Assembly (NCBI GenBank): GCA_027483355.1
Contig: JAIXUW010000292.1
Location: 68,628-132,627, forward strand
Direction of reading: 5' to 3'
From: Alphaproteobacteria bacterium
Lineage (GTDB): Bacteria > Pseudomonadota > Alphaproteobacteria > Micavibrionales > UBA2020
Length of the DNA stretch: 64,000 nucleotides
The translations under genes and the position numbers were made by a program. The notes below the pieces were generated by a model. It had not been told where the DNA came from. It worked only from the letters and a program-made list of their open reading frames with translations, and did no database searches. Shown here piece after piece: positions 1 to 37,050 of this stretch; position 1 is the stretch's first letter, and the number at the start of each line of letters is the position of its first letter.

Positions 1-3000
1 TACCAGCTGAATACGTCTAGTCCATCGTATAGATTGTTGAACCCTTGGGCGGGACAATGGGGACCTTCGTAGTTCACGGCGGTGCCGTTGTAAAGCACGG
101 ATCCGAATCCAGATGAACATTGAGTGCACGTGTTCAGATTATAGTCCGTGTTGCTGACAAACATTCCCAGGAGCGGAGAGCATTTGTTGAAAACGGTGTA
201 CGCAATAAAGTCAAACGCGTCTTTGGTGTAGCATTGAGGGATAAAGAATCCGCATCCAAACGACCAGCCGTAAGTGACGACCATGTGAAGTGGGATCAAG
301 AAGGGAGCTATCGTGCTCAGGAACACTCCAGCCGCGATTGGGTTGACAAAGACAAACACAAATAGGAATATGGTGAATACCACAGTCAGAATCTGTATCC
401 ATCCTCCAGCCCAACTGAATGTTCGTTTAGAGCAGTCCAAGTCCGTGGCGTAGTTACACGAGTACTTGTCGTAGATCGACGACGCAATCTCGCGGTAGTT
501 TGTGGTAATAAAGTCAATGATCGTGTCCACAAACTGAAGAACGGGAATTTGCAAAACATTCTCGATGAAATTGAACGTTTCCCACAATACGTTGACGTCA
601 ACCAGACCCGCGGCTCTCTCTTGCAAATACGTGTTGAATTGCGTCATCAGAGTACCATTTTGCACGAGTTCAGTCGGAAGAGGCACGCCGACCGTTTCTT
701 GGAAGAACCAATCGAGTTTGGGTCCCCAATCAAAGGGAAATCCTACGGCCTCACGAGGCGTGAATCTAAACCATTCGGCGGTACTCAGACCTCGAGCCGG
801 GAATCGAACTGGGTAGTTACCGTATCCAATGCGGACAGTCGTCGCCAAGTTGAACGTGTAGAGCAGAAAGTCCACACATGACAAGAAGGCTGCGGGGAAC
901 CACACCGTATAATATCCAATAGTCCAGAGGACTTGAGACACGATTTTTCCAACGACGTAATCGACGACAATACACTGCTCACAGAGTGTGGCGTCTCCGA
1001 GCTGACAGCCGAGAACGGATCGAGCAAAATCAATGCTTTCATTACGCGACTCTGGGAAGAAAAACTGGCTGCCGATAGACACGGATTCGGCCGTCGCCAT
1101 TCTGTTCTGTTTGCTGCCCAAATACGAATTGCCTACTTTGTTCTGCAAGACTCGAATTTCCACAACGTTGTGCGCGCGCACGGGCTTCAAATGCTTGGGC
1201 ATGGCTCTCATTTGCGCGATAAAACCTGGTTCTGTGCGGATTGCAGAAGCGGACGCGATTAGCGCGTATTGGCGACCGTCGGACAAACGAGACAGTTCGC
1301 CAGTCAACTCGGCCCGCTCGATTGCGGTCAGATTTCTCACTCCCTGAGCTGACATCATGATCTTTTGTTCAATGTCAGGACGCCTATCAATCAAAAGTGC
1401 CTCTCGATGTGTTTTGATTTGCACAATGGGAACTCGGTCGTCTCTCATGGTCGCCTTTTTGCCCGTCGCCTGTTCGTACAATTTGCGTCTAAACGTAATC
1501 GAATTCAACGTAATCGTGCGCTGATCCATCCAGATGTTCTCGTTTTGTAACGCGGTCTCGGCGGCAAGCGGCGTTTTCGTCTGGAAAAGCGACATGTAGA
1601 CTTCACGATCGGCCATCATTCGGGATTCTTCCAAAAAGAACTGAGTGGCTGCTCGAGTCACTGCAGCCGTTACCGTGTTGGATTGGCGGAATAGAGAACC
1701 CGTCTGCCTGGGATCCGTCGTGTTGTACGTTGACAATGGGACGCTAGAGGCAGCGTTTGCAGTTGTCTCCTCCACAACGTAATTGGCGTAGGACATGGCG
1801 TGATCTTGCAAACTAATTGTCGCATTGCCCTCCGAATAATCCTTGTACGTAGGCGTGCTCTGGAATTTCCGCTTCCATTCTCTGTACGCTTCTTGCTCTT
1901 CGTAAAACGTTTTGAACCGATTCTGCGACTGCTGAGCTGCTTTGGGGTCATAAATCACAGTTTCGGTCGTCTCAGTATTCGCAAAGCTCTGCTTGACATC
2001 TGAATTCAATTGATCCCAGTTTCTTTTCACAGACTGAAGCAAACGAGGAATGTTCTCATTATCCAAATGATGCTGGATTCGAGTCGTAAACTCAGTGCTG
2101 TAGGTCACAAACGCAGAAGCCAAAGAATACGTGAGCTGGCGTGCACCGCGAGCTTCGGGAGTTCGGGGCTGGCTCAATTCGGTCAGAACAGACGCAGTTT
2201 CGTTGGCCAAAAACTGGAAATCCTCCGTGATATTGTAGGACGGGTCCAGGAACTTGGTGGACAGAGTCCAGTCGTACTTGACGGAGCAGTTGGCGATATT
2301 GGCCGTCGCGTTACTCAATGAACACCAATAGGGGATGTAGGACGTGTTCAAGCGCGAAAGAGACGCGAACGCGCTTACAGATGCCACGACAAGTCTATGG
2401 AGTCTAGGTTGCTTTTCCAAATGGACCGGCGGCGTAGTCGTTGCCGGGTACTCGTCGGCGTCCATAGATCTCTTTTTCGTATTATAGTAATGCTGGGCCC
2501 ATTGTTCGTTGGCGGCACCGTTTGCAATCATGAATTCGTCGACGCGAGACGCGGCCGATTCCCAAATCGAATCGATGACCTGGCTGAATGTCAAACGAGG
2601 TCCTCTTTCAACACTGGCGTCTACAAGCACGCGTTTTTGTCCAGGAGTGCTTTCAGTTTCCTCCACTGAACGCTTTTTGCGTTTCTTGTTCTCAATTTCC
2701 CACGGATCCCTGTCCATGTAGTTTGAACTGTCTAGCACGTCGTGGAAATCCAGCCCATCTTCAGTAATCGTCCATGTCGAGATGATATCTTGAATGAATT
2801 TAGTGACTCCAGTCAACATCTGACCAAGAACGACGTAGAGATTGGCGTTGACTCGTGATTCGTCGTAGCTTGACACGTACTGGTCACCGTACTGTTTGTA
2901 GACCTCGGCTCTAACATTGCTTTCGTTATTCCAAACGTAGATGGAAGTGGAGCTGTAGTAAGAACCGTCGTCGAGAGACATATTTGTGACAGGATCCATG

Positions 3001-6000
3001 CCTTGAGCGATTCGCAACAATGCCGGGTCCGTGGAAAGATACAATGTGTTGTTGTACTGAATATCGGCGACAGTGTAGATGAAATTCGTGGTGCTCAAAT
3101 AAGATCGGTACAGGACGTCGGCGTAGGTCTGAATTCCGCCCGTGGTGTCTCCGAATCTCGATTTGCCGTAATCAGGATCGAAAAACTCGGGGACATTTCG
3201 TTTGAGATACCAGTCAATCGTCAAAGATTGTCTGTAGTGCTCAAAAAGAACATATGTGAGCTCGGATAGCCCGGGCCCAGGGTACAATTGCCGCATTTCG
3301 TTCTCGTAGTGAGACACATTAAGTCCCATGGCTTTCCATCTCATTTTCCATTCAGTGGACATGACTCGGTCTCGCGTCATGATCTTGTCAAATACAAATT
3401 GAGCGCCAATGACCGTAAATCGCGCAACGTGCGCAAATACATCAAATATACGAATGGGGTTGTACTTTATGTCCTTGGGGAGCCAGGACAAGAATGGAGA
3501 AGAGCTGGCCAGAGACACGGACACGGCAACGGATTGCAGACATTCCGTGTACACGTATACATCTGCGGCACGAAGCTCGCTGTACTTGGTTCCGTTTATG
3601 AAGCGGAAAAACTCGTGGCATGGAGTTCCAGGAGTCCATCCAACGTAGGTGGCGTAATGGGTGGGCAGATCTTCGGCAGTCGGGTTGCGATAGACTCTGA
3701 TAATCTCCGAGGTGCCGTTTGAATAAGTGACATTGAGTTCGAACATGAATCCGAATGCTTTTTGCATAGGCTCGGTCATGTTGACATACGCGTAAAAATC
3801 AGAAGTGCCTCTCTTCTTGTAATTCGTGCCCTCGTCTGCGTTGGCAAGATTGCCCGTTTGGCCTTTCAAAAAGTCGACAATGCGTCGGCAGCCTTTGCAA
3901 GGTTCGCATGAAGAGCAAATGCAGAGTAAACCGCAGACGGCTTCGATAATGGAAGTGATCCATCCCAAAAACAGACCAACGATGGAGAAGAAGATTTGCT
4001 CAAATGTGACACCCACGATTTGGAAGAATTTTTGAATGATCGTAGTAAACGTTCCCGTCGTGAAACCGCCAAAGATGCCTTGAATGACATAGAAAAACAG
4101 TTCTATGATCGCCGTAACCGTATCCCTCAATATAGACCCGAGGCGAATCAAGAACGAGTTGATGAGGCACAAAAACTGCGAAGTGGCAGTGACGTCTGAC
4201 GACGTGATCGCGCTAAGCCAGCAATCGACGGCATGAGCAAACGGGCATAGGGGTGATAATATCTTGTCGATGAAAATAGCGTAAATGTTTGAGATCACAG
4301 AAATCAAAGGACCCTTGCCGTTTACGAATTCGAAATTAGAGCCGTATTGTAGGAAAATGGCGATCAATTCAGGTCCGACTGCCAAGTAATTACCAAGACG
4401 GCATGCAAACGTTGCCATGCATACATTGGGCGTCTGGCGCGTCGGCAAGCTTCTAAATTCTCGAACGGCGCAAAATCCAGGTCTCGTGGCATGGCATTGC
4501 AAATCAATGGGGATTAGATAGGCGATCGTGGTTCCTAGACGACATCCAAAGCGATACGCTGTCTGATTGAAACCCGAGATGTCGAGTGGAGTGACTGGGC
4601 CGAGTTGACCTTGCGAGGTCACGGACACGAACGCTTTGACCACGTTTTTAATGCTTCTCAAAAGCAAAAGGAATCCTCGGATGAATAGCTGCACTAGAGC
4701 CTCGAATGTGGCTCCTAATCCGCACACGAACGACAAGCGGGATCGACATGTGACTGCATCCGCATTGTCAAATCGGTAAATGAACGTGGCAATGTTGCTG
4801 ATTTGAAGGGCTTCGGTTTCAAGCGCGTTCAAGGGCGCGTTGGGAGTGTTGTCCAAAAGATCCAGAATGGATGGATTGTTTTGCTCGTAGGCCCAACGAG
4901 TGTAGGCAAGCAAGTAGATGGGCACTCGGATACCCAAATTCAGAAACACGTTGAGTGCGCTCTGCAAGAATCGACCGATTCCAGGGTCGAGTAATCCAAA
5001 CGTGCATCCGAACGACTTGGCAAATCGCGGAATCTGAGCACTAAATTCCTGCAGTCTGTCACCGTCTCGGACGAAATAGAGAGCCGAGAAATACCCAGGC
5101 CACTTGGTCAACTCTAACAAAGTATACATTTCACCAAACGCCAAGTCTAGAACGATGTAGACCGCGGCGACTAGAGCGCGGCCTAATCCGCCAATAATTG
5201 GTCCAAACTTGATGTTCTGATCTTCACCATAAAACTCGTTTCCTTCGACCACGCATGTTGGAGCAATGTCCAAAAGCCCTTCGGCGCTATCAAAAAAGTT
5301 GATCAAGTTGACACGCAACATGTTAAACGTCAAGAATGTGTTTCCGCCCAATGTGAACCACGAAGGTGCGTAGAATATTAGTCTTAAAGCTTCCCAGAAC
5401 AAGGAAGACGCGGAAGCAAAGAAGAATCCGACAGTCTCGGCATATCGGGACTTGAAAAAGTTGACCAGATATTGGATGTAGCTTTCTGGAGGCTGTGGGA
5501 TCGGAAGCGACCCATTCACATACCCTTTGATATTTCCCAAGTAAATGTCGAACTGGATCACGGTCACGTTTTGAATCCAGAATCCGGCATTTTGCAACGC
5601 GACAGTGGTTAAATCGTTGAATTTCTCAATCGAGGGCCCGGTCTGTTTCAACACAGGCATGAAAAACAGTTGCTGAACAGCTGTCCAAGGAAGGTAAAGA
5701 ATACTGGCCACAGTATTCCTGAGCGACTGTTGTCTGAGTGACTCGCCGATTCCGCCCACAACGTATTTGAGGTACTGACAAGACGGAAGAATCGATCCCG
5801 CGTACAATTCGTATGCAAACTCGAATACATAAGTGAGAGGTTCGTCTAGAGGATACTGAGTGTAGAGGGGATTGCTGTTGATCCAGAACACCAAGCCTAG
5901 AATTAGAGAGGCCACAAATTGCCCGAACAATTTGGCTAAAGTAATAAAATTGGTGACCACAAAGGTCAAAAGCACTCGCGCGGGCCCCCACATGAGAAGG

Positions 6001-6692
6001 TTGTACACTCTGTAGAGCAGCACCGCAATTCCGAGTGAAAGCGTGGGAATCATGACCACGACTATATTTGTGAGCGGCAGTGCCAAAAAGTCGACGGCCA
6101 GTGGTCGAATAGTACATTGCCACGCTTGCACGACTATCGGGACAGTGGTGTCAAATGTTTCTCGAAGTCCGTAAGCGGCGAATGAGAGGCCGCCAAGCAC
6201 AAGAATGGGGAGCGCAAGAGCGACACCGTTTGATCCTGCGCTTTTGACAGAATCCACAAACCCGGATACGAGCAGAACGCCAGTGCCGACCAAGGCACCG
6301 AACGCCGTGCTCAACGACGACACTTCCACTGCTTTGGCACGCTGGCTTTCCAAGTCAGATTCTTGAATTTGGCCTATTGAATCGGCCGTAGTGACTAATG
6401 TCAGGAACCCAGGTGCGTACTTGGCAATGCGAACGCGGCGGGCTTTTTCCTCGGGTGACAACGGCTTTGGTTTTCGCGCCACGAGTGCCCAGAATATACA
6501 GAACAATAGGGCGGTGATAATCATAAAACCTAGAATTTCAGCTCCAATGAGGAGAATGGCGACCGACAACTTGCGTCGGTCCAGAGCCGAGGAGCTTCCG
6601 GTAGCTTTGACCAATAAAGGTACAACAGCCGATGCTAGAGTCCAAGCTGCGCCCAGCGCACTAAAGGCAGGCGGGACAATAGCAGCGGCCAT
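1..6692 (-). CDS. Giant polytopic membrane protein; 5' end complete, 3' end beyond the window (at least 2230 aa)
   Basis: ATG at 6690-6692 (minus) in context GAAAAAAAA-ATG. In my manual translation the frame stays open all the way to position 1. It is missing from the ORF track only because no stop lies in the window, and none of the listed minus ORFs in 1-6700 shares its frame. N-terminus MAAAIVPPAFSALGAAW. It has many ~20-aa hydrophobic segments, numerous NxS/T sequons, the Cys cluster CGLLCICSSCEPCKGC and a KKRKKR|S site. Confidence 0.8.
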   Translation of the reverse strand, partial: MAAAIVPPAFSALGAAWTLASAVVPLLVKATGSSSALDRRKLSVAILLIGAEILGFMIITALLFCIFWALVARKPKPLSPEEKARRVRIAKYAPGFLTLVTTADSIGQIQESDLESQRAKAVEVSSLSTAFGALVGTGVLLVSGFVDSVKSAGSNGVALALPILVLGGLSFAAYGLRETFDTTVPIVVQAWQCTIRPLAVDFLALPLTNIVVVMIPTLSLGIAVLLYRVYNLLMWGPARVLLTFVVTNFITLAKLFGQFVASLILGLVFWINSNPLYTQYPLDEPLTYVFEFAYELYAGSILPSCQYLKYVVGGIGESLRQQSLRNTVASILYLPWTAVQQLFFMPVLKQTGPSIEKFNDLTTVALQNAGFWIQNVTVIQFDIYLGNIKGYVNGSLPIPQPPESYIQYLVNFFKSRYAETVGFFFASASSLFWEALRLIFYAPSWFTLGGNTFLTFNMLRVNLINFFDSAEGLLDIAPTCVVEGNEFYGEDQNIKFGPIIGGLGRALVAAVYIVLDLAFGEMYTLLELTKWPGYFSALYFVRDGDRLQEFSAQIPRFAKSFGCTFGLLDPGIGRFLQSALNVFLNLGIRVPIYLLAYTRWAYEQNNPSILDLLDNTPNAPLNALETEALQISNIATFIYRFDNADAVTCRSRLSFVCGLGATFEALVQLFIRGFLLLLRSIKNVVKAFVSVTSQGQLGPVTPLDISGFNQTAYRFGCRLGTTIAYLIPIDLQCHATRPGFCAVREFRSLPTRQTPNVCMATFACRLGNYLAVGPELIAIFLQYGSNFEFVNGKGPLISVISNIYAIFIDKILSPLCPFAHAVDCWLSAITSSDVTATSQFLCLINSFLIRLGSILRDTVTAIIELFFYVIQGIFGGFTTGTFTTIIQKFFQIVGVTFEQIFFSIVGLFLGWITSIIEAVCGLLCICSSCEPCKGCRRIVDFLKGQTGNLANADEGTNYKKRGTSDFYAYVNMTEPMQKAFGFMFELNVTYSNGTSEIIRVYRNPTAEDLPTHYATYVGWTPGTPCHEFFRFINGTKYSELRAADVYVYTECLQSVAVSVSLASSSPFLSWLPKDIKYNPIRIFDVFAHVARFTVIGAQFVFDKIMTRDRVMSTEWKMRWKAMGLNVSHYENEMRQLYPGPGLSELTYVLFEHYRQSLTIDWYLKRNVPEFFDPDYGKSRFGDTTGGIQTYADVLYRSYLSTTNFIYTVADIQYNNTLYLSTDPALLRIAQGMDPVTNMSLDDGSYYSSTSIYVWNNESNVRAEVYKQYGDQYVSSYDESRVNANLYVVLGQMLTGVTKFIQDIISTWTITEDGLDFHDVLDSSNYMDRDPWEIENKKRKKRSVEETESTPGQKRVLVDASVERGPRLTFSQVIDSIWESAASRVDEFMIANGAANEQWAQHYYNTKKRSMDADEYPATTTPPVHLEKQPRLHRLVVASVSAFASLSRLNTSYIPYWCSLSNATANIANCSVKYDWTLSTKFLDPSYNITEDFQFLANETASVLTELSQPRTPEARGARQLTYSLASAFVTYSTEFTTRIQHHLDNENIPRLLQSVKRNWDQLNSDVKQSFANTETTETVIYDPKAAQQSQNRFKTFYEEQEAYREWKRKFQSTPTYKDYSEGNATISLQDHAMSYANYVVEETTANAASSVPLSTYNTTDPRQTGSLFRQSNTVTAAVTRAATQFFLEESRMMADREVYMSLFQTKTPLAAETALQNENIWMDQRTITLNSITFRRKLYEQATGKKATMRDDRVPIVQIKTHREALLIDRRPDIEQKIMMSAQGVRNLTAIERAELTGELSRLSDGRQYALIASASAIRTEPGFIAQMRAMPKHLKPVRAHNVVEIRVLQNKVGNSYLGSKQNRMATAESVSIGSQFFFPESRNESIDFARSVLGCQLGDATLCEQCIVVDYVVGKIVSQVLWTIGYYTVWFPAAFLSCVDFLLYTFNLATTVRIGYGNYPVRFPARGLSTAEWFRFTPREAVGFPFDWGPKLDWFFQETVGVPLPTELVQNGTLMTQFNTYLQERAAGLVDVNVLWETFNFIENVLQIPVLQFVDTIIDFITTNYREIASSIYDKYSCNYATDLDCSKRTFSWAGGWIQILTVVFTIFLFVFVFVNPIAAGVFLSTIAPFLIPLHMVVTYGWSFGCGFFIPQCYTKDAFDFIAYTVFNKCSPLLGMFVSNTDYNLNTCTQCSSGFGSVLYNGTAVNYEGPHCPAQGFNNLYDGLDVFSW

Positions 6693-6712: not shown

Positions 6713-6721
6713 GTCTATATA
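6713..6721 (-). promoter_or_regulatory. TATA-like element TATATAGAC, about 20-30 nt upstream of the ATG at 6692
   Basis: The minus strand reads CATATATAGACAGAGGAAAGAACGAAAAAAAA-ATG. The same 9-mer recurs upstream of the gene starting at 27508. Confidence 0.4.
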
Positions 6722-6920
6722 TGCGTGTTTTACAGACAAAGGTTCATGTAATCAAATGTGCGCAAAAAATGCGACTCAATGGCAATTATTTCAAAATAAA
6801 TGGGCGAGCTTGAAGAAATCAAATTACCCAAGCAGTTATTTAAAATTTTGCGCTTGGACGGCTCCATGTAACCAGTACATGATTCACAGATTTACAATTC
6901 AAGCCGGTTGTTTTTGTGCA

Positions 6921-9731
6921 ATGTTAAAAGCGGCGTTAGTCGCTCTGATTGCTCTTGGAATCGCAACTGTCACCGCGGCCCCGCTTTCAAATGCCGCCGA
7001 GTCTGGCGTATCGCGCTACTGTGGCGCGGTTCTATACAATCGCTTTAACAATGTAAGCGACATTGTGAACTGCGATTTCATGTCCACGGCGTCGTGGCCC
7101 ACTCAAACAATCATAGTAAACAATGTACCGGTCGTGGCCTCGTTTCCCACAGGTAGATTGCGACTCTCTTTTTTCGGAACGTATCCCATGCCGCCATTTG
7201 CAACTGTGTTGCCTATTGGAGATGATAGAAACGATGTGGTTGCAAGTGATCCCGCCATCATGCAGGCCCCGGACTACTTGACGGATTTCAACGGTTTCAA
7301 TCTGAGAAATTATTGGTTCAATACGAGCATGGTTGGGCGTAAATTCCCCGACATGTTGACCTTTTCTATCCCGTGGTGCGCAGCCAATCTTGACTATGCA
7401 ACTCCATACAGTGGAAACGCGACAATTCAACAGCTATACCCGCCCGATTACCCTGTGTGGTCTAATCCGAGTGACACCACGCTCCCCGAGTGCCGCACGC
7501 CGTTGCTGTTCAACTATAGGCCGATCGGAGGCTCTACTGCCGCACAGCGATTTGATACACATTGCAACGGCACATTTTCTCAAACCTGTTTGCAATCGCC
7601 ACGCCTTAACTTTGGAACAGGGCGTCCTAGCGTGCCGAATGACCCTTTCTACTTGACTCGACCTGAATTGGCCGAACTGAACAATTATCCTAGTTACGCA
7701 CTCAACCCCAAAGTTTCAAGATGGGGTCGCAACTACTATGATGTACCTCCGGATTCAATCGGCAATTTCTGGGGCCGAGGAATCGCGCGCGACCAAGGCG
7801 ACGATATAGTCGGCACCTACACATGGATTCGCCCGCCGAATTGCACCATGGAGCTTTATACTAGCCAGAATAAGACACCGATTATCAATTTTGATTTTGA
7901 AGGGCTGTATGATCAACAGGACGGTGCGCCTGTTCTCATTGAGTGGGATTCCAACACACCTGCTGCCAACGCAAGTAGACCTTGGATGAACAGAGTCAGT
8001 TTTATGCCTGGCCTGTCATGTTTCGCATTGAACCCTAGACCGGCATCCGCCCTGCGGTTTTCGGAATCCAACGTGGCTTTAGTGACCGGCATCTGTCGTG
8101 CTACAGCGCCTTGGAACGCGACCAAATACTCGAGCAGTTTAGACCAATTCGCGTATTTGACATTGACCGGTGGCGTCACTCAACCGTCGTCAATCGCACC
8201 TAACACGGTCGCCGTTCAAATCGCAGTCTACAACCTTCCCTCAGATGGAATGTCCGTTTATACTACAGTCGACGCGGTTCAATACGCTCCCAACGGTACT
8301 ATGGACCCCATTGTGCTTAGAGTGAGCAATAATCTGTTTCTGCAAAACGGAAAGATCTCTCAGTTTACGGTTGATTACACTCAAATCGCAGGATCATTCC
8401 AGAACGTATGGGATCTTTTCCTGACCGTGTTTGCGCCTGACAACACTCCCATTTTGTCATTGAGACTTCCCGAAGATAATTCAATCCCTCCATGTGCTTG
8501 CAGACCAAGCGCGGATGTGTTGGACGGGAACGTGATTTGCGATACGGATTTCAAAGTGATTGAAGACACGATCATTACCAATCCTCTCTTCGTGCCAGGT
8601 CAAACCACAGTTAGACCTAACTGTACTATCGTATTGACTTCGGTTCAAGGCTCTTTCATACGAGGGAACTCGACGATAGAGCAGAATTCATTGTACCAAC
8701 TGAACTTGAATATCAACGGCAGTAGCGACAACGGGTATATTGTAGGCTGGAATGTCATGAATAATGGAGCATTGTCCGTGCAAATAGACACTCCGGAAGG
8801 TCAGACAGCTCAATTCAGAGCGTTTGGCGAGGGTCAGTTTACAATTCAAGCTGCGGTCACAGTGCCCGTTTCACTTTTAAAGGGAACGTGCTTTGTCGAC
8901 ATTCAAGTGTTTAGAACATGCGTGACTCCTGCTATAGCGGCTGGAACTACGGACGCGGATTTGAATCAACTGGTCACGCTCGACGCCACTGTAACATTGA
9001 TTCCTAGTGGCAATGTATACTATGATTACTCGTGGACAATTGACAATGCCGTTCCATTATCTTCATTGGGATCGGCGTCGATAACAAACGCGGCTGCGTC
9101 TGTAATTTGGTTTTCTGCGTCAAGCACGGCGCTCTACACTCTTAAGCTACAACTCGACACATACGACGTGACTTCTCTCTCTCTATTATGCGTTCAGTAC
9201 CGATATATCGACATTGCAGTGTCGAACAAGACGCTGCCGCCGATAGACCCGGGAGTCGCAGACACTGTTGTCATTCCCGATGTATGCTTTGAAAACATTG
9301 GCAATTTTACGAAGCCGATTCCACCAACGGGCGAATACATTAACGGGTTGCCGCCGACTGACCCAGTCAATTTCCAGCCCATCGGCAGCGTCAATTTTGC
9401 TCAAGACGATAGCTGGAAACTTACAAAGCTTGTGAGGAATTTGGCAAGAATGAACTTTTCAGAAGAAGACGAAGGAGTAAGAATGAAGAAGGCCGAGTCG
9501 GAGAACTTGGCCGTTCAAATCGCTTACACGGCCATCCGCGTTATTGTTGGAATCTTTGGCACTGCTCTAGGTATTCTAGTATCCGTATCGTTATACACAT
9601 TGTTGCCACTGTCGGCGCAAGAAAAACTCAGGACGTGTTGCTCGCGCAAGAGCTGCAAAAAATGCAAACGCTGCAAGCCGTGTTGCGGCAAGCCCTGTTG
9701 CGGCAAAAAGAAACACAGAAACCAAAAGTAG
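6921..9731 (+). CDS. Type I membrane glycoprotein, paralogue A (936 aa), with a PKD-like Ig domain and a Cys/Lys-rich cytoplasmic tail
   Basis: Internal ATG of track ORF 6756..9731 that starts a signal peptide (MLKAALVALIALGIATVTAAP). It has many NxS/T sequons and a C-terminal TM segment (IVGIFGTALGILVSVSLYTLL). Its Cys scaffold is shared with the 10869..13463 product. Confidence 0.85.
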   Translation: MLKAALVALIALGIATVTAAPLSNAAESGVSRYCGAVLYNRFNNVSDIVNCDFMSTASWPTQTIIVNNVPVVASFPTGRLRLSFFGTYPMPPFATVLPIGDDRNDVVASDPAIMQAPDYLTDFNGFNLRNYWFNTSMVGRKFPDMLTFSIPWCAANLDYATPYSGNATIQQLYPPDYPVWSNPSDTTLPECRTPLLFNYRPIGGSTAAQRFDTHCNGTFSQTCLQSPRLNFGTGRPSVPNDPFYLTRPELAELNNYPSYALNPKVSRWGRNYYDVPPDSIGNFWGRGIARDQGDDIVGTYTWIRPPNCTMELYTSQNKTPIINFDFEGLYDQQDGAPVLIEWDSNTPAANASRPWMNRVSFMPGLSCFALNPRPASALRFSESNVALVTGICRATAPWNATKYSSSLDQFAYLTLTGGVTQPSSIAPNTVAVQIAVYNLPSDGMSVYTTVDAVQYAPNGTMDPIVLRVSNNLFLQNGKISQFTVDYTQIAGSFQNVWDLFLTVFAPDNTPILSLRLPEDNSIPPCACRPSADVLDGNVICDTDFKVIEDTIITNPLFVPGQTTVRPNCTIVLTSVQGSFIRGNSTIEQNSLYQLNLNINGSSDNGYIVGWNVMNNGALSVQIDTPEGQTAQFRAFGEGQFTIQAAVTVPVSLLKGTCFVDIQVFRTCVTPAIAAGTTDADLNQLVTLDATVTLIPSGNVYYDYSWTIDNAVPLSSLGSASITNAAASVIWFSASSTALYTLKLQLDTYDVTSLSLLCVQYRYIDIAVSNKTLPPIDPGVADTVVIPDVCFENIGNFTKPIPPTGEYINGLPPTDPVNFQPIGSVNFAQDDSWKLTKLVRNLARMNFSEEDEGVRMKKAESENLAVQIAYTAIRVIVGIFGTALGILVSVSLYTLLPLSAQEKLRTCCSRKSCKKCKRCKPCCGKPCCGKKKHRNQK

Positions 9732-10868: not shown

Positions 10869-13463
10869 ATGAAATACAAACTAGATAGCTTGTATATTTT
10901 TTTACTGGCCGCTGTGCTCGGACTTGCGTGCCAAACGGCTCGCGCGCAGACTCCCAACCTGTCGTTGCGGCTAAACAAATACTGCGGTGCTAGAATATAC
11001 AATAACGACGTGAGCATCCCTTGTTATTTACTCGCTGGTGGATACAGAGCGTCTCGATTCCTTGGAGTATTTCCCTATCCTGCTACGGTAATTGAGTTTT
11101 ATCCCACGCCGGCTTTGCCGCCGCTAGTTTACAATGGAAGCGTTCTCAATTTTACGTTGGGACCTGAGCCAGTATATCAAAATTATTCGGGCATTCCGCT
11201 CTCAACGCTGTTCAATTTAACGGCGACTCCGCCCGCGCTACCGGGTTCTATCACATTCCCCGTGCCATATTGTGCAGCTACTAGCTTTAGAGTAATTAAC
11301 GGACTTTCAGGCATACAATATACGGCTTTAAATCCTACTACGGGATCGACTGTCCTTCGTTTTTCCGTTCCTGGGGCATCTTCGGAGTGTTTTGAGAGTC
11401 TAATGCTATACAACTACGAGCCTTTGTGTAGCGCAAAGACAACGCAAGAATTCGACACTAATTGCGCGACGGACACGACGTCATTTACGACCTGTGCAAC
11501 AAATCCGCTCAAGCTCACGCCTGTTGTACCTATTAGTCTTCAAAATGTAAACATTACTGCAGCAGGCCAAGTCTCTGCCAACGTAGTTGCCGATTTGATA
11601 AACGGTCAAATTCTACAAACGGGCCAATCTGCGTGCTCCGGATGGGGCACGACACGAAATAGAGCTCTATACGGATTTCCATTTCCTTCAACAGCAGATT
11701 TAGGATTGGCTGCGAGTGATTTGGGCCCACCGGTCCCGTATGCAGGAACAATAACATGGATCAAAAAGCCCGGATGTACTAGCAGCGCATTGGCGTTTCG
11801 AATTGACGGAATACCTCGAACTGACAGATTGACTCCGATTTTGATTCGATCTGACGCAAACGTGAACGAGGCGGCTCGCGTTGCTTACGTACCCGAGATT
11901 CAGTGCAATCAAAACGCGCTTCGGCCCGCGTCCGGTCCACGAAGACAGGCCTACATCAATGTTGCTCCGTATTGTAGAATAGCAGGACAATTTTCCACCA
12001 ATGTCCCAGCGCCTCCGAGTACGGCGTTTTACCCGGAAAAGTCCGGCGGTGTCATCCCACCCGCTAATATCAACGATGGAAACATTGTGTACATGGTGTC
12101 CGCACATAATCTGCCTGACTCTCTTGGTTCGGCTCCGTTTTCCAATGCCGACTACCCGCCGTTGAGCGCCTGGACTCAAATTAGCGCGCTCTATCCCACT
12201 AGCGTGAACCAATCGCGCATTGTGGCCACAGTGTATCCGAGAAACCGATTTAGATCGTTTGTGACTTTGAATCAGAGCTTTGCCGATTTGGAAGATCGAG
12301 CTCTCGTCTACGCCCGGAAATTCAGTCCTTATTCGGACGTGGAGCTTGTGGCATCCGAAGCGCGAATCAACAATATTCCATCATGCAATTGCTACGTACC
12401 TCAAATCAATAGCACAGTGCCGTTTGATTCCAAGGGCGCGATTCCTTGTGACACAAATTACAACGCGATTTTGAACGATATTGTTCCCTACTATTCACAG
12501 CCAACGGGAACCTTTTCGGGAACTCGACCGGCGTGTAATATCAAACTATTGGACGGGTTTTTGAACACACCCAACGGTGTACTTCAATCAGGTCTGTACA
12601 CAGCTCGAGGATTCGCTTCAGGAGCTGATCTGTATGCATGGAGATTCTCGACTGGAACACCGCAAAGTGTAGTCATTGTATCCGGTCAGGGAACTCCGGA
12701 TATTACGTTTCGCGTGTTTTCCTCGAATCAGATTCAGACTCTCGAGCTTATTGTGACTAGGCTGGAACCGACACAAAATTTCACATCCAGATGCACGCTT
12801 GAATTACGCGCGTTCACGGGCGCACCGCAAATTTTTGTGGTCCCAGTGTCGGCTCAAGTTGCTCCAGGCCAAGGGCTAACATTGAACGCGTCGTTGACGT
12901 TTTCACCGACCGGTGAACCTATAACATTCGAATGGTCCGTCTACTTACCGGACACTCAAGCCAATGTACTGACGCAGACCGGTAACACGCCAATCACAAC
13001 GTTCACTACGACCGAAGTGGGCACATATGGAATTAGACTGCGTGTAAGAAATCCTCGAGTCTATTCGGATCAGCAAATCACAATCGTGGTCACTCAGAAC
13101 GCACCGCCGCCCAACACGACCATTGAAATCCCGTCAATCTGCCAGTCCTTTTTCAACAGCGGCAACGTGAGCAATGTGACTTTTCCTCCGTACAATGCCA
13201 CGGATCCCGGTTTCATACCGCAGCCACCTCAAGCAAATTCTGTGCTCGTGCCGCCCATAGACCTGGCGCCCAATCTGACACCCGAACAGATTTTAGACGC
13301 GCGGTTCGACAATGCGTCGGAAATGTTTATAGCTCTTTTAAGAGCGTTTGTGGGAGTTATACTAGCATTAGGAGGTATATTTACAGCGTTTGTAGTATAC
13401 TGGATCGCAAAACGGTTTGTGAAATTGTTGTGCGCCAATATGGGCGATCCCAAAGTGGAATAA
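10869..13463 (+). CDS. Type I membrane glycoprotein, paralogue B (864 aa), with a PKD-like Ig domain
   Basis: ATG start with a signal peptide (MKYKLDSLYIFLLAAVLGLACQTARA). It has many sequons, a TM segment (FVGVILALGGIFTAFVVYWIA) and a short tail. The segment GLTLNASLTFSPTGEPITFEWSV...GTYGIRLRVRN fits the PKD-domain pattern. Confidence 0.85.
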   Translation: MKYKLDSLYIFLLAAVLGLACQTARAQTPNLSLRLNKYCGARIYNNDVSIPCYLLAGGYRASRFLGVFPYPATVIEFYPTPALPPLVYNGSVLNFTLGPEPVYQNYSGIPLSTLFNLTATPPALPGSITFPVPYCAATSFRVINGLSGIQYTALNPTTGSTVLRFSVPGASSECFESLMLYNYEPLCSAKTTQEFDTNCATDTTSFTTCATNPLKLTPVVPISLQNVNITAAGQVSANVVADLINGQILQTGQSACSGWGTTRNRALYGFPFPSTADLGLAASDLGPPVPYAGTITWIKKPGCTSSALAFRIDGIPRTDRLTPILIRSDANVNEAARVAYVPEIQCNQNALRPASGPRRQAYINVAPYCRIAGQFSTNVPAPPSTAFYPEKSGGVIPPANINDGNIVYMVSAHNLPDSLGSAPFSNADYPPLSAWTQISALYPTSVNQSRIVATVYPRNRFRSFVTLNQSFADLEDRALVYARKFSPYSDVELVASEARINNIPSCNCYVPQINSTVPFDSKGAIPCDTNYNAILNDIVPYYSQPTGTFSGTRPACNIKLLDGFLNTPNGVLQSGLYTARGFASGADLYAWRFSTGTPQSVVIVSGQGTPDITFRVFSSNQIQTLELIVTRLEPTQNFTSRCTLELRAFTGAPQIFVVPVSAQVAPGQGLTLNASLTFSPTGEPITFEWSVYLPDTQANVLTQTGNTPITTFTTTEVGTYGIRLRVRNPRVYSDQQITIVVTQNAPPPNTTIEIPSICQSFFNSGNVSNVTFPPYNATDPGFIPQPPQANSVLVPPIDLAPNLTPEQILDARFDNASEMFIALLRAFVGVILALGGIFTAFVVYWIAKRFVKLLCANMGDPKVE

Positions 13464-17116: not shown

Positions 17117-20100
17117 TTAAAGGAGCCCCGTGGCTTGTTTTGCAAACCAATTGCTATAAAAGGGTTTGCCGTTTGCAGAGACGGGTACAGGTTCGGGATC
17201 GGGTTGATTCAACGACGGTAGCGGATTCGTTGGTTCTACGCTGCTCGTGTTCGGCAATATTGACGTTTCGAAAGCCGGCGGCGGTGGCGCTGTAGGAAAA
17301 CTCATGCCAGGCGCCGGGTACGTTTCAGACGAGAACGGCTGTGCAAAACTTGTGTTAGCCGCTGTGGACGTTTCATACAGGGACGGCTGCGCAAAACTTG
17401 TGTTAGACGTCATAGACGTATCGAACGGGACTCGGAGCGAAAAATTCGCAGGCTCCATGTCACTCACGTTGGGTAACATTGACATTCCATAGGGCGACAA
17501 GTTGTCGCTAGGCAACGTGTTTGTACCCGTTGAAGCATACAAGTAGTTTGCGATTGCTGCAGCGGTGCCAACGAGCGCGACGGCTGCTGCGGCCTTGACG
17601 TAAGGCGTGGCCTTTCCAAGCAGACCCATTATTTCCCACCCTTTTGTGACAATCAAGTTTTTCTTTTTCCCCGGATCAACTGCAATTTTGTTCTGGACAA
17701 TGTCGTTGAATTCCTTTTCTTTTACCTTGAGTTTAGTCTCAATCTGAGCCAGTTGCGGCGGCAATTCATCGTCGTCGTCGTCATCGTCTAATGCCAATTG
17801 CACTGTTATAGGGCCAGGTTGATTTGACGAATTTGACCCCGTGTATGCAATTGGTGCGTTTTGAGCGCGGTTCGGTGCCTTTGAAAAGGTATTGCGCTTG
17901 CGTTTTCCGGCGGGCTTTTGCACAACAGGCTGGTTTGTAACGGGCGCAGCCGGAACATTGGGTTGAATAGCAACAGGCACTTGCGGCGCTTGTGGCACTT
18001 GAGGTTGGATGACTGGCGCTTGTGGCACTTGAGGTTGGATGACTGGCGCTTGTGGCACTTGAGGTTGGATGACGGGCGCTTGTGGCACTTGAGGTTGGAT
18101 GACTGGCGCTTGTGGCACTTGTGGTTGGATGACGGGCGCTTGTGGCGCTTGCGGTTGAGCGGGAGGCACTTGAGGTTGCACAACAGGCAGTTGTGGCTGG
18201 CCGGGAGGCGCTTGTGGTTGCACGACGGGCACTTGTGGCTGAACAGCGGGAGCCACTTGTGGCGGAGCGGCAGGCGGGTTTCTTCTAAACCAATTTCCAA
18301 TGCTATTCACAATATCTCCAATCACTGCTGCTTTTTGAGGAACATACGCGGCTGCCTTTCTGAGACTAGACAGTACTTCTCCGGCTTTGCGTGTGAGCTC
18401 GGCGCCGTAGCCTGGTCTCTCGTACAGTTTCCGATACTCTCTAATCCTTTCCCTAAGCTCGCTGACTTCCGTTCTCGCAGCCGAGGCCTCAGATTCGACC
18501 TGTTTAGCACGCGCAGCCACCCTTCTCGCCTTTGCCTTTGCCGATCGAAGTTTCGCCGCGTTCTGACTCGACGCTCGCGAGTTGAATTTCATTCCGGCGA
18601 ATGTATTCTGCATTTCTTTCAATGCATATTCACCCAAGTGACCGGCTCGTTTTGTCAAATGCGACTTGTTCCACAGACTGTAGCGAGCCGTGGACGAGAA
18701 GGTGCTGCCCAAGTCCCACGCGATGAAAAGAGTAGTTTTCGACTTTTCCACATCGGCATTTTTTGCAAAATACGCGCTTATAGCTTTTTCTTCTTCCTCA
18801 AGCGTAATTGGGAGGAAATCAAACTCGGAGGTCGAGAAAATCGGCCGAATGTTGTCTGCCACGTAATTCTCTGCCGCCTTCACGTCGTATGCAGCAATTA
18901 CGACTTTTGTAACGACACCACTGAGAAGGAAAAGTGCTTCTGACATCGCTAACAAAGACACGGCGGGGACGGCAAGCCTGATCACTGGATATCCGTACCG
19001 CGCATCTCTCACGAGATACTCTTTGAAAATGTTTTGGTGGTACAGTGCTTCCATAATCAACTTTGAACCGCTCAAATACTGCTTGAGAGACAGTTCGCCG
19101 ATCAAAGTGCGAGACTGAGCCGATTCACGCAGTTCGGTTGCCGAAAATCCGTAGTTGACAACGGCATCGGGCGACGGGAAGCATCCATCGTAAATGTCGA
19201 ATGCGATCGAGTAGATGGCCGTGGTCACGGGCGCCCATGACTCAGTTGCGGTTTTTGCGAGACTCTGCACTTTGTCGGCCCATTCTTTAACAAGCGGGGT
19301 TGCCGCGTTTTGTGCTTGAAAGTGCTTGCCGATGACTTGCACAGCACGCATCAATTGTTCCACGCTGCCCTCGTATAAGAACGGTTGAAATTGAGCGTCC
19401 AAGATTGCCATACAGAGTTCTTGACCGAGTCCGGTCAAGTTGTAAAAGTCCATTTTGGACAATAGATCCAAAATTTTGTCGGCATAACCTTCCGATGCTT
19501 TGCTATACACTGCAGCGGACTTGATCCACGTGTCCACGAGTTCCTTTTCCAATTTCTCGTAGCTGGGGTCCGGAAGAACCAAATTTCTCGCCGCGTGAAC
19601 CTCGTCCCGAATCGTTGTTATGCTTTCTTCAGAAGCAGTCCAGCCGACCAGAGTGGCTGCAGCGGCAACTTGCACAGTGTCAGTCGAATCGACCTTTGCG
19701 AACACGTCGTATATTTGACGCGCTCGAGGCGGAAGCTGATTGATCATTGCCTGCATTCCGGTAATGGTAATAATCGAAGTGTACGTTCCGTATTTTTCAA
19801 ACGCTTTGGGCTCGCTGTTGAACGCACACGCGACCGCTTGCTGGTATTTTGTGAATATGGACAGATCCGGAAGCTTTGGCTTTTTCTCCTTTGGCGGCTT
19901 TGCATCGGGCGCAGGCGCGTCTTGGTCTCCATTTTCCGGAGCCGACATCTGTTCTGCCTTTCTTTTGCCCTTGGGTTTGGAATTACCGCCGCCGGCTTTT
20001 GGACCCCGAAGTTCAAACAGAGAGTTTGTCGGCGAGACGTCCATGGCGTCCTCCTCGTTCTTTTTCTTTTTAGACGACTTGCTCTCACGCTTGGTCAGAT

Positions 20101-36152: not shown

Positions 36153-36557
36153 ATGGCTAACAATTGCCAAGAAACAACAGAAAATGCTGTTGAGTTGACG
36201 GAATCCGATGAAATAGAAAAATACGTGCAAGAAATTATAGACAAATTCCCGCCAACCATGGGGCCTGGTTATGAAACACCCATTCATTTGAGTCAGCTAA
36301 ACTTTAAGCTGAAACACTTGGACAAAATACAGGACAGCCTACAGGCTAAAGGAATTTGGATGCGCCCTTACTGGGACTACAAAGACAATTTAATGGGATA
36401 CGATTTTGGATACGAAGTAGCCGTCGACGATTCCCTATGGAGTGGCGCGCGACCAATTAGCACTTCTCGGCAGGTGTTTTTACTTGGTTGTATCGTAGCG
36501 GTATTAATATACATGTATCAACGGTGTCTCGTGTCTACATTAAACCAAAATGAGTAA
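36153..36557 (+). CDS. Tail-anchored small protein (134 aa), paralogue 1
   Basis: C-terminal TM segment (VFLLGCIVAVLIYMY). It shares the core KGIWMRPYWDYKDN..GYDFGY with the next gene (RGVWTKPYFKYNGKRIGHTFRF). Confidence 0.6.
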   Translation: MANNCQETTENAVELTESDEIEKYVQEIIDKFPPTMGPGYETPIHLSQLNFKLKHLDKIQDSLQAKGIWMRPYWDYKDNLMGYDFGYEVAVDDSLWSGARPISTSRQVFLLGCIVAVLIYMYQRCLVSTLNQNE

Positions 36558-36630: not shown

Positions 36631-37050
36631 ATGACTGAAGTCAGAAAAAAGTGGGAGCAATCTCACTCTGTGTTTAAAACAGAACAAATGCAGGAAATTG
36701 TGAAAATAGCTGACGCCGTCGTGGAAAAGGTTCCTCCCGGCGACTCCGAAGAGCCTGAAATTATGTTGACTGACATGGAGTTGGAACTGAAATACAAGAG
36801 CGCGCCCCTTTTGGAAGCTGAACTTTATCGCAGAGGCGTCTGGACGAAACCGTACTTTAAGTACAACGGGAAACGCATCGGTCACACCTTTCGATTTCAA
36901 GGCGTCCCAAGTTCCGATGCATGGTCTACATTTACGCATTTTATTGCACACAAATTCTGGCAAAACCCTGCAGATTTTGTTCTCACCATTCTTCTCTGCG
37001 TTGTCTGTATCGGATTTGTTGCATTGGCGTACACGGCCTCGAGAAAGTAA
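36631..37050 (+). CDS. Tail-anchored small protein (139 aa), paralogue 2
   Basis: ATG start and a C-terminal TM segment (FVLTILLCVVCIGFVALAY). The sequence resembles the 36153..36557 product. Confidence 0.6.
   Translation: MTEVRKKWEQSHSVFKTEQMQEIVKIADAVVEKVPPGDSEEPEIMLTDMELELKYKSAPLLEAELYRRGVWTKPYFKYNGKRIGHTFRFQGVPSSDAWSTFTHFIAHKFWQNPADFVLTILLCVVCIGFVALAYTASRK

What the first reader, a model, noticed from the sequence alone, without database searches (positions are those of the whole stretch)
1..6692. Giant polytopic membrane protein (at least 2230 aa) that is invisible in the ORF track
The largest gene start in the window is missed because the ORF leaves the window. My translation shows about 10 or more hydrophobic segments in the first 1000 aa. 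These are followed by a cysteine cluster (CGLLCICSSCEPCKGC, 3882-3941), a roughly 1000-aa sequon-rich hydrophilic domain, and further TM segments near residue 2100. I know of no family it matches. Its position, divergent from a pair of type I glycoproteins, suggests an envelope, entry or channel role.
Basis: partly seen in the sequence, partly recalled or inferred. Interest (0 to 1): 0.6.

Follow-up and report, generated by a model that had tools for sequence, protein, structure and literature searches.

The report
Giant viral multi-anchored membrane glycoprotein family
The window's left end encodes most of a real 2,481-residue membrane glycoprotein that founds an unannotated family. The family is conserved across a group of poorly known large DNA viruses, or virus-like elements, of eukaryotes, and it resembles no known protein in sequence or predicted fold.

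Summary
Window 3-6692 (minus strand) is an uninterrupted 2,230-codon reading frame starting at the ATG at 6692, which has a TATATA 29 nt upstream. The complete protein is 2,481 aa (P0001).

It is not an orphan. I found 12 full-length relatives of 2,129-2,851 aa, an N-terminally truncated one, and four more divergent giants. They come from marine and soil metagenomes and from unidentified sequencing runs. None is named. In the contigs I compared, it is the only gene recognisable by BLAST across all of them.

The "10 or more membrane spans in the first 1000 aa" is an over-count. A fairly confident AlphaFold model, helix hydropathy, 27 conserved cysteines and conserved N-glycosylation sites indicate:
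- a short N-terminal membrane cluster;
- a large all-alpha luminal domain;
- a hydrophobic hairpin;
- about 1,170 aa of glycosylated ectodomain;
- two further hydrophobic anchor blocks and an acidic tail.

An N-Y-x-(basic)-R motif follows the hairpin in all 13 aligned members, and a second dibasic site ends the next domain.

My best reading, which is inferred, is a virion or envelope glycoprotein precursor cut by a furin/kexin-type protease and acting in entry or envelopment. Pfam, PDB sequences, PDB folds and viral folds gave no real match. The virus lineage is unresolved.

The parts
6716..6721 (-). TATATA element 29 nt upstream of the start codon. The A-rich context AAAAAAA precedes the ATG.
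   Evidence: TATAWA lies within 120 nt upstream of 8 of 35 window genes, against about 6% expected by chance.
1..6692 (-). Codons 1-2230 of a 2,481-codon gene. Bases 1-2 belong to codon 2231, and the stop codon lies outside the window.
5877..6671 (-). N-terminal hydrophobic cluster, residues 8-272. Candidate spans are 8-28, 44-71, 124-149, 156-174, 203-226 and 247-272. The number and orientation of spans are not settled.
   Evidence: Hydropathy. Family-wide charge bias of the loops, e.g. loop 227-246 has 24 K+R and 0 D+E.
4119..5876 (-). Domain A, residues 273-858. An all-alpha, cysteine-rich domain with conserved sequons at N375 and N393, probably luminal or external.
   Evidence: AlphaFold model, pLDDT about 85 over this part. 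Helices are amphipathic. Thirteen conserved Cys lie in this domain, and N393 is a sequon in 12 of 13 members.
4221..4247 (-). Invariant motif C816-P-x-x-H820-x-x-D823-C824 (LSPLCPFAHAVDCW).
   Evidence: Invariant columns of the 13-sequence alignment A5.
3918..4118 (-). Hydrophobic hairpin, residues 859-925, inferred to be two spans.
   Evidence: Hydropathy and long model helices at 836-875 and 879-923. Glycosylation and cysteine evidence on both sides requires an even number of spans.
3888..3935 (-). Cysteine cluster CGLLCICSSCEPCKGC, residues 920-935. Only C920 and C929 are invariant in the family.
3810..3824 (-). N957-Y-K-K-R961. N957 and Y958 are invariant and are followed by a basic pair. 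This is a candidate furin/kexin-type cleavage site.
   Evidence: The motif occurs in 13 of 13 aligned members at the same place in the architecture.
2703..3809 (-). Domain B, residues 962-1330. It has the highest sequon density in the family and conserved W1019, C1025, C1051, W1070-L-P1072 and D1102. Its core (about residues 1017-1146) also occurs as stand-alone secreted proteins of 256-277 aa.
2670..2687 (-). K1336-K-R-K-K-R1341, a second candidate cleavage site with the R-x-K-R consensus. Relatives carry N[FY]KR or RxKR at the end of domain B.
   Evidence: and sequences.
1023..2669 (-). Domain C, residues 1342-1890. This is the least conserved part (about 50% identity to P0002). It is hydrophilic, with conserved sequons at N1449 and N1461 and conserved C1457.
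402..1022 (-). Domain D, residues 1891-2097. It is strongly conserved, with invariant C1896, C1904 and C2079 and a conserved sequon at N2012.
276..401 (-). Hydrophobic block, residues 2098-2139, probably two spans joined by a 4-residue turn.
1..275 (-). Start of the cysteine-rich domain E, residues 2140-2310. The rest of domain E, the last hydrophobic block (2311-2347) and the acidic tail lie outside the window.
6756..9731 (+). Divergent neighbour: a type I glycoprotein. The likely true start is the Met at 6921, which gives a signal peptide. It has a C-terminal span, 16 sequons and a Cys/Lys-rich tail. It is a paralogue of 10869-13463.
10869..13463 (+). Second type I glycoprotein, with a PKD domain. 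Homologues flank the giant gene in L001 and L005.

Best explanation
This is the precursor of a very large structural membrane glycoprotein of an uncharacterised large double-stranded DNA virus, or virus-like element, of a eukaryote.

Proposed course of events:
1. The protein is inserted into the endoplasmic reticulum membrane through an N-terminal cluster of spans.
2. It exposes a disulfide-bonded all-alpha domain to the lumen (residues about 273-858).
3. It dips back through a hydrophobic hairpin (859-925).
4. It then exposes about 1,170 aa of N-glycosylated ectodomain.
5. It is anchored again by two C-terminal hydrophobic blocks that flank a cysteine-rich loop, and it ends in an acidic tail.
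6. In the secretory pathway, a furin/kexin-type protease cuts after the conserved N-Y-K-K-R961 and after R-K-K-R1341. This yields a membrane-embedded N-terminal subunit, a released or non-covalently held middle piece (domain B), and a C-terminal anchored subunit.
7. The complex ends up in the viral membrane. There it acts in entry (attachment, then membrane fusion or penetration) and/or envelopment, probably together with the adjacent PKD-type type I glycoproteins.

Shown here:
- The gene is real and under purifying selection.
- The family and its conserved architecture exist.
- The cysteines, sequons and dibasic motifs are conserved.
- The N-terminal domain is predicted as all-alpha.
- No known relative was found.

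Inferred, not shown: the topology, the cleavage, the location in the particle, and the role in entry.
For: - Real gene: 2,230 stop-free codons, with pN/pS 0.17-0.45 along the whole length.
- Family: an exhaustive profile search of 1.84 billion representative proteins found 22 proteins. Eleven are full-length giants of 2,129-2,851 aa; P0002 makes twelve relatives of P0001, because it falls in P0001's 50% cluster. Three more distant giants also matched. A further divergent giant, P0147, was found.
- Architecture: all 16 share the layout of an N-terminal hydrophobic cluster, a 760-1,630-aa hydrophilic stretch, and two C-terminal hydrophobic blocks.
- Core status: in the contigs compared, it is the only gene recognisable by BLAST across all of them.
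- Luminal exposure:
  - There are 27 conserved cysteines. All but C305 lie in domain A, the segment after the hairpin, or domains B-E; C305 is in the cluster-to-A transition.
  - There are none in about 1,000 aa of tails and none in loops 29-123, summed over the family.
  - Conserved sequons sit at N375, N393, N1449, N1461 and N2012.
  - Sequon density is 1.1-1.75 per 100 aa in domains B-D, against 0 in the hydrophobic blocks.
- Fold: the AlphaFold model of residues 181-1330 has mean pLDDT 74 (about 85 for residues 181-920) and is all-alpha. Only 3-4 of its helices are hydrophobic enough to span a membrane.
- Processing: N957 and Y958 are invariant and are followed by K/R-R in 10-12 of 13 members. 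A second N[FY]KR or RxKR site ends domain B. The chance expectation for N[YF]K[KR]?R is about 0.02 per protein (my estimate from typical residue frequencies).
- Acidic tail: at least 10 D/E in a 12-residue window in 5 members and 5-7 in another 6. Acidic-cluster tails direct Golgi retrieval of furin and of the herpesvirus glycoproteins gE and gB (established knowledge).
- Context: a divergent pair of paralogous type I glycoproteins with a PKD domain recurs next to the gene in L001 and L005.
- Eukaryote-type signals: TATA and AATAAA elements are enriched around the window's genes.
Against: - There is no expression, proteomic or particle evidence.
- The source is not proven to be a virus. No capsid, portal, terminase or polymerase gene was recognised in the window or in any related contig.
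- The topology is not settled. The K/R-rich loop 72-123 and the strongly positive loop 227-246 cannot both be cytosolic if there are six N-terminal spans.
- The last hydrophobic block is 37 aa here but 50-66 aa in relatives, so the side on which the tail lies is uncertain.
- Neither candidate cleavage site is followed by a hydrophobic fusion-peptide-like segment (GTSDFYAY; SVEETEST).
- Dibasic pairs are common in long proteins. Only the N-Y-prefixed motif is clearly non-random.
- The C-terminal half could not be modelled (pLDDT 31).
Confidence: 0.45

Rival explanations
1. It is a membrane protein of the infected cell rather than of the particle. It could be a scaffold that remodels endoplasmic reticulum, nuclear-envelope or Golgi membranes for assembly or egress, or a transporter or channel.
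For: - It has several separate hydrophobic anchor regions and a large helical domain.
- It has an acidic tail of the kind used for intracellular sorting.
- No fusion-peptide-like segment follows the dibasic sites.
Against: - Most of the mass is hydrophilic, glycosylation-site-rich and cysteine-rich, which is typical of exposed ectodomains rather than transporters.
- No transporter or channel family matched by sequence or fold.
- The most variable part is the long ectodomain, which fits exposure to host selection.
Confidence: 0.2
2. It is an uncleaved giant surface adhesin or coat protein: a spike or fibril that binds the host surface or cell wall, with no role in membrane fusion. On this reading the N-Y-K-R motifs are structural.
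For: - The ectodomain is long, variable and glycosylated.
- The neighbours carry PKD domains, which are common in adhesion proteins.
- Domain B also exists as small secreted proteins in other virus-like contigs.
Against: - N957 and Y958 plus the basic pair are invariant in a poorly ordered linker (pLDDT below 50 at model residues 759-788). That is where a processing site would be expected, not a structural core.
- An adhesin would not need three separate anchor regions and a highly conserved 600-aa membrane-proximal domain.
Confidence: 0.15
3. The locus is cellular, from a compact protist genome or a non-viral giant mobile element. The protein would then be a host surface or organelle membrane protein.
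For: - No virus hallmark gene was recognised anywhere.
- No relatives were found in the IMG/VR viral collection.
- The source contig sits unnamed in NCBI.
Against: - Only 3-4 of about 44 tightly packed, intron-free genes have any Pfam signal, which is far too few for cellular DNA.
- There are no tRNA genes.
- The window holds lineage-specific paralogue families, a Pif1-like helicase and, in a relative, a primase.
- Relatives span 32-59% GC while keeping the same dense layout.
- The contig length of 292 kb is typical of a large virus genome.
Confidence: 0.08
4. It is an artefact: a chance open frame, an assembly chimera, or several genes or exons fused by mistake.
For: No transcript data are available, and the gene leaves the window.
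Against: - The chance of such a frame is about 1e-32.
- Purifying selection acts on every 200-codon block.
- The same colinear architecture is found in 16 independent assemblies.
Confidence: 0.01

Closest known systems
Furin-cleaved viral entry glycoproteins (class I fusion proteins; herpesvirus gB and gH/gL)
   Same: - Large N-glycosylated, disulfide-rich ectodomains.
- Conserved basic cleavage motifs.
- Acidic cytoplasmic-type tails.
- Genes clustered with other envelope glycoprotein genes.
   Different: - No sequence or fold match.
- This protein is three to five times larger.
- It is anchored by three or four separate hydrophobic regions instead of one span.
- It has no hydrophobic peptide after the cleavage sites.
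- Its membrane-proximal domain is an all-alpha fold with no match in the libraries searched.
Multi-span glycoprotein precursors of RNA viruses (bunyavirus M-segment polyprotein, e.g. the Crimean-Congo haemorrhagic fever virus precursor; flavivirus and pestivirus envelope regions)
   Same: One long chain threads the membrane several times. Host proteases, including furin or SKI-1 types, cut it into several glycoproteins that stay together in the envelope (established knowledge).
   Different: - Those are RNA-virus polyproteins, cut mainly by signal peptidase.
- They have beta-rich class II fusion domains.
- No similarity was detected here.
- Cleavage of the present protein is only inferred.
Phage tape measure and internal virion proteins
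   Same: They gave weak, non-significant hits: PDB 8v3w_B (E 8e-4, over the hydrophobic hairpin only) and several entries in the viral fold library. They share very long helices and glycine-rich hydrophobic stretches.
   Different: - TM-scores are 0.06-0.13 and fold probabilities at most 0.3.
- The matches cover compositionally biased segments only.
- Tape measure proteins are not glycosylated, disulfide-bonded membrane proteins.
Pfam PF19226 (DisA glycoprotein) and PF05473 (UL45)
   Same: These are the only Pfam families that surfaced for any of the 13 members.
   Different: - One member each, at E 0.029 and 0.037.
- For P0001 the DisA score is 14 bits against a cut-off of 27.
- The P0001 DisA match covers the hydrophobic hairpin only.
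- I treat both as chance.
Multi-subunit entry machineries of large DNA viruses (poxvirus entry-fusion complex; baculovirus and nudivirus per os infectivity factors)
   Same: Conserved, cysteine-rich membrane proteins that are core genes of large DNA viruses and mediate entry (established knowledge).
   Different: - Those are many small proteins rather than one giant chain.
- No Pfam family of either system matched the giant protein or the neighbours scanned.

Membership tests
Herpesvirus glycoproteins gB / gH / gM (Pfam families) | Significant match to the family profile. | tested here: not met
   No Pfam family at E <= 0.01 for P0001. None of these families matched any of the 13 members at E <= 0.05.
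Class I viral fusion protein | Type I topology: a cleaved signal peptide and a single C-terminal span. | tested here: not met
   Nine hydrophobic segments in at least four separate regions.
Class I viral fusion protein | Basic cleavage site immediately followed by a hydrophobic fusion peptide. | tested here: not met
   Basic sites are present (R961, R1341), but the following residues are polar: GTSDFYAY and SVEETEST.
Class I viral fusion protein | Two heptad-repeat regions that form a six-helix bundle. | not tested
   No coiled-coil predictor was available. The C-terminal half gave a low-confidence model (pLDDT 31).
Class II / III fusion proteins (flavivirus E, HAP2, gB, GP64) | Characteristic beta-rich ectodomain fold. 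| tested here: inconclusive
   Residues 181-1330 are all-alpha with only one short beta hairpin and match no such structure. Residues 1331-2400 could not be modelled.
Glycoprotein polyprotein precursor cut by host proprotein convertases | Conserved luminal R/K-x-K/R-R or K-R site between folded modules. | tested here: met
   The N-Y-x-basic-R motif occurs in 13 of 13 members after the hairpin. RKKR1341, or N[FY]KR/RxKR in relatives, ends domain B.
Glycoprotein polyprotein precursor cut by host proprotein convertases | Demonstrated cleavage products. | not testable with these tools
   This needs protein chemistry.
Phage tape measure protein | Significant profile or fold match over most of the length, in a tail gene context. 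| tested here: not met
   The single PDB sequence hit covers 120 hydrophobic residues. Fold TM-scores are at most 0.13. There is no tail gene context.
Known channel or transporter families | Match to a transporter or channel profile or fold. | tested here: not met
   No Pfam match. Foldseek hits to OSCA and Na+-pyrophosphatase have E above 1 and TM-scores of 0.16 or less.
New family defined here (giant multi-anchored glycoprotein) | - Length 1,900-2,900 aa.
- An N-terminal hydrophobic cluster.
- An all-alpha Cys-rich domain with C-P-x-x-H-x-x-D-C.
- A hairpin followed by N-Y-x-basic-R.
- A W-x-P-x-x-x-C ... W-L-P-x-D-x-x-Y-N module.
- Two C-terminal hydrophobic blocks flanking a Cys-rich loop. 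| tested here: met
   Alignment A5 of 13 members and its invariant columns. Architecture in 16 members. The three to four most distant members keep the architecture and the module-B match but lack the N-Y-K-R motif.

The most novel reading that the evidence does not exclude
The gene is the signature entry machine of a so-far unrecognised lineage of large eukaryotic DNA viruses. On this reading, a single 2,000-2,900-aa chain is processed into a multi-subunit complex. It combines membrane anchoring, receptor-facing glycoprotein and membrane-penetration functions in an all-alpha architecture unrelated to the three known classes of viral fusion proteins. It could then serve as the marker gene for finding this lineage, which lacks recognisable hallmark genes in the roughly 250 kb of window and related contigs examined here.
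Probability: 0.2. Interest if true: 0.85.

Novelty: new variant of a known kind. Interest (0 to 1): 0.62.

Why it matters
Entry and envelope proteins are unknown for most newly discovered large DNA viruses of protists and other eukaryotes.

This family is large and strongly conserved. In the contigs compared, it is the only gene recognisable by BLAST across all of them. It could therefore serve as a practical marker for a group of genomes that standard hallmark-gene screens appear to miss, since there were no hits in IMG/VR.

Its N-terminal 740 residues give a confident predicted fold with no match in the PDB or in the viral structure library. If the protein proves to be the entry or fusion machine, it would add a new architecture to the short list of known viral fusogens.

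Even on the most conservative reading, it is a well-defined new protein family with testable features: two conserved cleavage motifs, 27 conserved cysteines and five conserved glycosylation sites.

Tried and rejected
Searches on the protein that found nothing useful:
- Pfam on the protein and on all 13 family members gave nothing above noise.
- PDB sequence search with two-sequence and 13-sequence profiles gave only acidic-tail and hydrophobic-segment matches.
- A word-indexed homologue search with the single protein found only one relative. Repeating it with the family profile added just one more, so that search was largely wasted. The exhaustive HMMER search found the family.
- hhalign between the seven regions of the protein found no internal duplication.

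Structure work:
- Modelling residues 1331-2400 with two sequences gave pLDDT 31, which is unusable.
- Foldseek against the PDB and the viral library gave no significant match.

Attempts to identify the virus:
- Pfam on about 30 window ORFs.
- Pfam on neighbours in L003, L005 and L014.
- PHROGs on 10 window ORFs.
- A motif scan for polymerase and Walker A motifs.
- A homologue search with the helicase, which returned only generic Pif1-like proteins.
- Sample-accession and contig-length searches in the literature.

Hypotheses about the source that I considered and could not confirm:
- I read papers on mirusviruses and on SmDNAV-like "ariadnaviruses".
- I could neither confirm nor exclude that the window belongs to either group.
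- The AurliV-1 mirusvirus GC content (45.0%) and the ariadnavirus genome sizes implied by the paper's protein counts and gene densities (my estimate, about 220-260 kb) do not match well.
- Alloherpesvirus, malacoherpesvirus and nimavirus origins also lack support. There were no hits to their Pfam families, and relatives occur in soil and in 32-59% GC genomes.

Other:
- I could not settle the N-terminal topology by the positive-inside rule, because the constraints conflict.

Full report

Translating window 1-6692 on the minus strand gives 2,230 codons without a stop. The ORF-listing tool omits it only because it runs off the window. The ATG at 6692 is the first ATG after an in-frame stop 17 codons upstream. 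With the window's stop-codon frequency of 0.033, the chance of such a frame is about 1e-32.

A TATATA element lies 29 nt upstream, and the start has an A-rich context. An identical protein of 2,481 aa (P0001) is on record from a 292,368-bp NCBI contig, so the window lacks the last 251 codons.

Against the closest relative (P0002, 66% identity, Tara Oceans scaffold, locus L001), synonymous sites are saturated (pS 0.71-0.86). Non-synonymous differences stay at 0.14-0.34 in every 200-codon block. The whole frame is therefore a protein under purifying selection.

The long hydrophilic, sequon-rich stretch (residues 927-2094, 17 of 22 sequons) and the hydrophobic block near residue 2100 are also confirmed.

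**2. A family, not an orphan.**

Word-indexed searches found only P0002. An exhaustive profile search of 1.84 billion representative proteins, using residues 1-1150, found 22 proteins:
- Eleven full-length giants of 2,129-2,851 aa, counting P0001. P0002 falls in P0001's 50% cluster, which makes twelve relatives of P0001.
- An N-terminally truncated member (P0134) and three shorter fragments.
- Three more distant giants of 1,873-2,178 aa that match only residues about 1017-1143.
- Four small secreted proteins of 256-277 aa that consist of that same module.

None carries a name.

The members come from marine (Tara) and JGI metagenomes, from unidentified public sequencing runs, and from one NCBI assembly. 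Their contigs range from 32% to 59% GC.

In an all-against-all comparison of the window with five related contigs, the giant is the only gene recognisable by BLAST in all of them. It behaves as a core gene of this group.

**3. Anatomy.**

The 13-sequence alignment A5 has these invariant residues: C816-P817-x-x-H820-x-x-D823-C824, C842, C920, C929, N957-Y958, W1019, C1025, C1051, P1072, D1102, C1457, C1896, C1904, C2079, C2147 and P2152.

In all, 27 cysteine positions are conserved in at least 9 of 13 members. Five sequons are conserved: N375, N393, N1449, N1461 and N2012.

Summed over the family:
- Cysteine density is 2.3-3.5 per 100 aa in domains A (273-858), D (1891-2097) and E (2140-2310).
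- It is zero in about 1,000 aa of C-terminal tails and zero in loops 29-123.
- Sequon density is 1.75, 1.10 and 1.30 per 100 aa in domains B, C and D, and zero in the hydrophobic blocks.

An AlphaFold model of residues 181-1330, built from a 19-sequence alignment, has mean pLDDT 74 (about 85 for residues 181-920). It is almost entirely helical, with many helices of 30-50 residues. Only helices 183-232, 237-272, 879-923 and marginally 498-526 are hydrophobic enough to span a membrane. The helices between 283 and 835 are amphipathic, with charged residues.

That region is mostly a folded, probably luminal, all-alpha domain bracketed by an N-terminal span cluster and a hairpin at 859-925. Glycosylation-site and cysteine evidence on both sides of the hairpin requires an even number of spans there.

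The architecture recurs in all 16 giants examined: an N-terminal hydrophobic cluster, a long hydrophilic stretch, then two C-terminal hydrophobic blocks about 130-230 aa apart. There is no internal duplication.

**4. Candidate processing sites.**

Directly after the hairpin, every one of the 13 aligned members has N-Y-[KLM]-(basic)-R. In the window protein this is N957-Y-K-K-R961. A basic pair occurs in 10-12 of 13 members in these columns.

At the end of domain B, six members have N-[FY]-K-R. The window protein has K-K-R-K-K-R1341, which fits the furin consensus. P0002 and P0123 have K-K-K-R and R-R-K-R. From the sequences, the other four also have a K-R or R-K-R at this point.

The first site lies in a poorly ordered linker of the model, with pLDDT below 50. 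I read these as cleavage sites for a furin/kexin-type protease of the secretory pathway. This is an inference from the known specificity of those enzymes. Neither site is followed by a hydrophobic peptide.

**5. Tail and neighbours.**

The C-terminal tail is acidic. Five members have at least 10 D/E in a 12-residue window, and six more have 5-7. By analogy with furin and herpesvirus gE and gB, such clusters act as cytoplasmic sorting signals.

The side on which the tail lies is not certain, because the last hydrophobic block is 37 aa here and 50-66 aa in relatives.

The divergent neighbour at 6756-9731 and the gene at 10869-13463 are paralogous type I glycoproteins. Each has a signal peptide, a C-terminal span and 16-17 sequons, and one has a PKD domain. 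Homologues flank the giant gene in L001 and L005.

**6. Comparison with what is known.**

Nothing real matched:
- Pfam: no family for the protein. Two sub-threshold chance hits appeared among the 13 members.
- PDB sequences, with profiles: only the acidic tail and one hydrophobic-segment match to a phage tape measure protein.
- Foldseek against 350,542 PDB chains: best E 0.43, generic alpha-solenoids.
- Foldseek against the viral predicted-structure library: best E 0.005, with TM-score 0.07.

**7. What carries it?**

The window has about 44 tightly packed genes without evident introns and no tRNA genes. TATA and AATAAA elements are enriched around its genes.

Almost nothing in it is recognisable. 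The signals are a Pif1-like helicase, the PKD domain, and weak DOT1-like and DUF5900 hits. A relative encodes a primase small subunit. PHROGs found nothing.

This pattern, the 292-kb contig length and the lineage-specific paralogue families point to a large DNA virus or virus-like element of a eukaryote that is transcribed by host-type machinery. No capsid or packaging gene was recognised, so this stays an inference.

I could not place it among mirusviruses, SmDNAV-like viruses, herpes-like viruses or nimaviruses.

**8. Verdict.**

This is a real, complete-in-database, 2,481-aa membrane glycoprotein and the founding member of an unannotated family.

The best-supported reading (confidence about 0.45) is a virion or envelope glycoprotein precursor, multiply anchored, processed at two conserved basic sites, and working in entry or envelopment with the adjacent PKD glycoproteins.

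Rival readings are an infected-cell membrane remodeller or transporter (0.2), an uncleaved adhesin or coat protein (0.15), a cellular protein (0.08) and an artefact (0.01).

In kind, it is a new variant of a viral membrane glycoprotein, with an architecture and predicted fold not seen before. I score interest at 0.62.

Noticed in passing
window 17955-18194 (inside the 2,400-codon ORF 17117-24319, minus strand): A tandem array of about eight 30-nt units, up to 98% identical over shifted 90-nt copies, encoding a 10-residue repeat inside the second giant ORF of the window. Other contigs of the group also carry a second giant gene of 2,005-3,149 aa within about 10 kb of the membrane giant. Only those of L003 and L015 are clearly homologous to each other.
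   Followed up: partly
window 52069-53397, 53542-54789, 55018-56292 (all minus strand): Three adjacent paralogous genes of 415-442 aa (23-31% identity) with no Pfam match. This is a lineage-specific multigene family.
   Followed up: partly
window 36153-36557 and 36631-37050 (plus strand): Two adjacent small paralogues of 134 and 139 aa, 25% identical.
   Followed up: no
window 56702-58339 (plus strand): The N-terminus, MSAPFTLYDLPDELLTNHIIQHLD, looks like an F-box motif. Pfam reported no hit at E <= 0.01.
   Followed up: no
window 9650-9731 (C-terminal tail of ORF 6756-9731): The type I glycoprotein ends in a Cys/Lys-rich tail, CCSRKSCKKCKRCKPCCGKPCCGKKK, which looks like a palmitoylation-type cluster. 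Its real start is probably the Met at 6921, which gives a signal peptide; the L001 homologue aligns from there.
   Followed up: partly
window 28816-30765 (minus strand): A Pif1/RecD-like superfamily 1 helicase, the only replication protein recognised in the window. The identical protein is present in sequencing run SRR16126875, which may reveal the host.
   Followed up: partly
window 41456-42709 and 43872-44891 (minus strand): Weak sub-threshold Pfam hits to DOT1 histone methyltransferase (E 0.0011) and DUF5900 (E 0.002).
   Followed up: no
window 42943-42992: A 50-nt palindrome combining A/T runs and a GC-rich core (CCAAAAAAAATTTTTTGGGCCGGGGCCCCGG...). It lies in a region with only small ORFs.
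   Followed up: no
L014 10001-10834 (and P0139, P0142, P0143): The core of domain B (residues about 1017-1146 of the giant) also exists as stand-alone secreted proteins of 256-277 aa. In L014 the gene sits in a dense, virus-like contig that also encodes an SNF2-type helicase, so the module is shared with another kind of large virus.
   Followed up: partly
whole window 1-64000: Only 3-4 of about 44 ORFs give any Pfam signal, and none matches PHROGs. TATAWA and AATAAA elements are enriched near gene ends (8 of 35 and 9 of 35 genes, against 6-7% expected). This suggests host RNA polymerase II-type transcription.
   Followed up: partly
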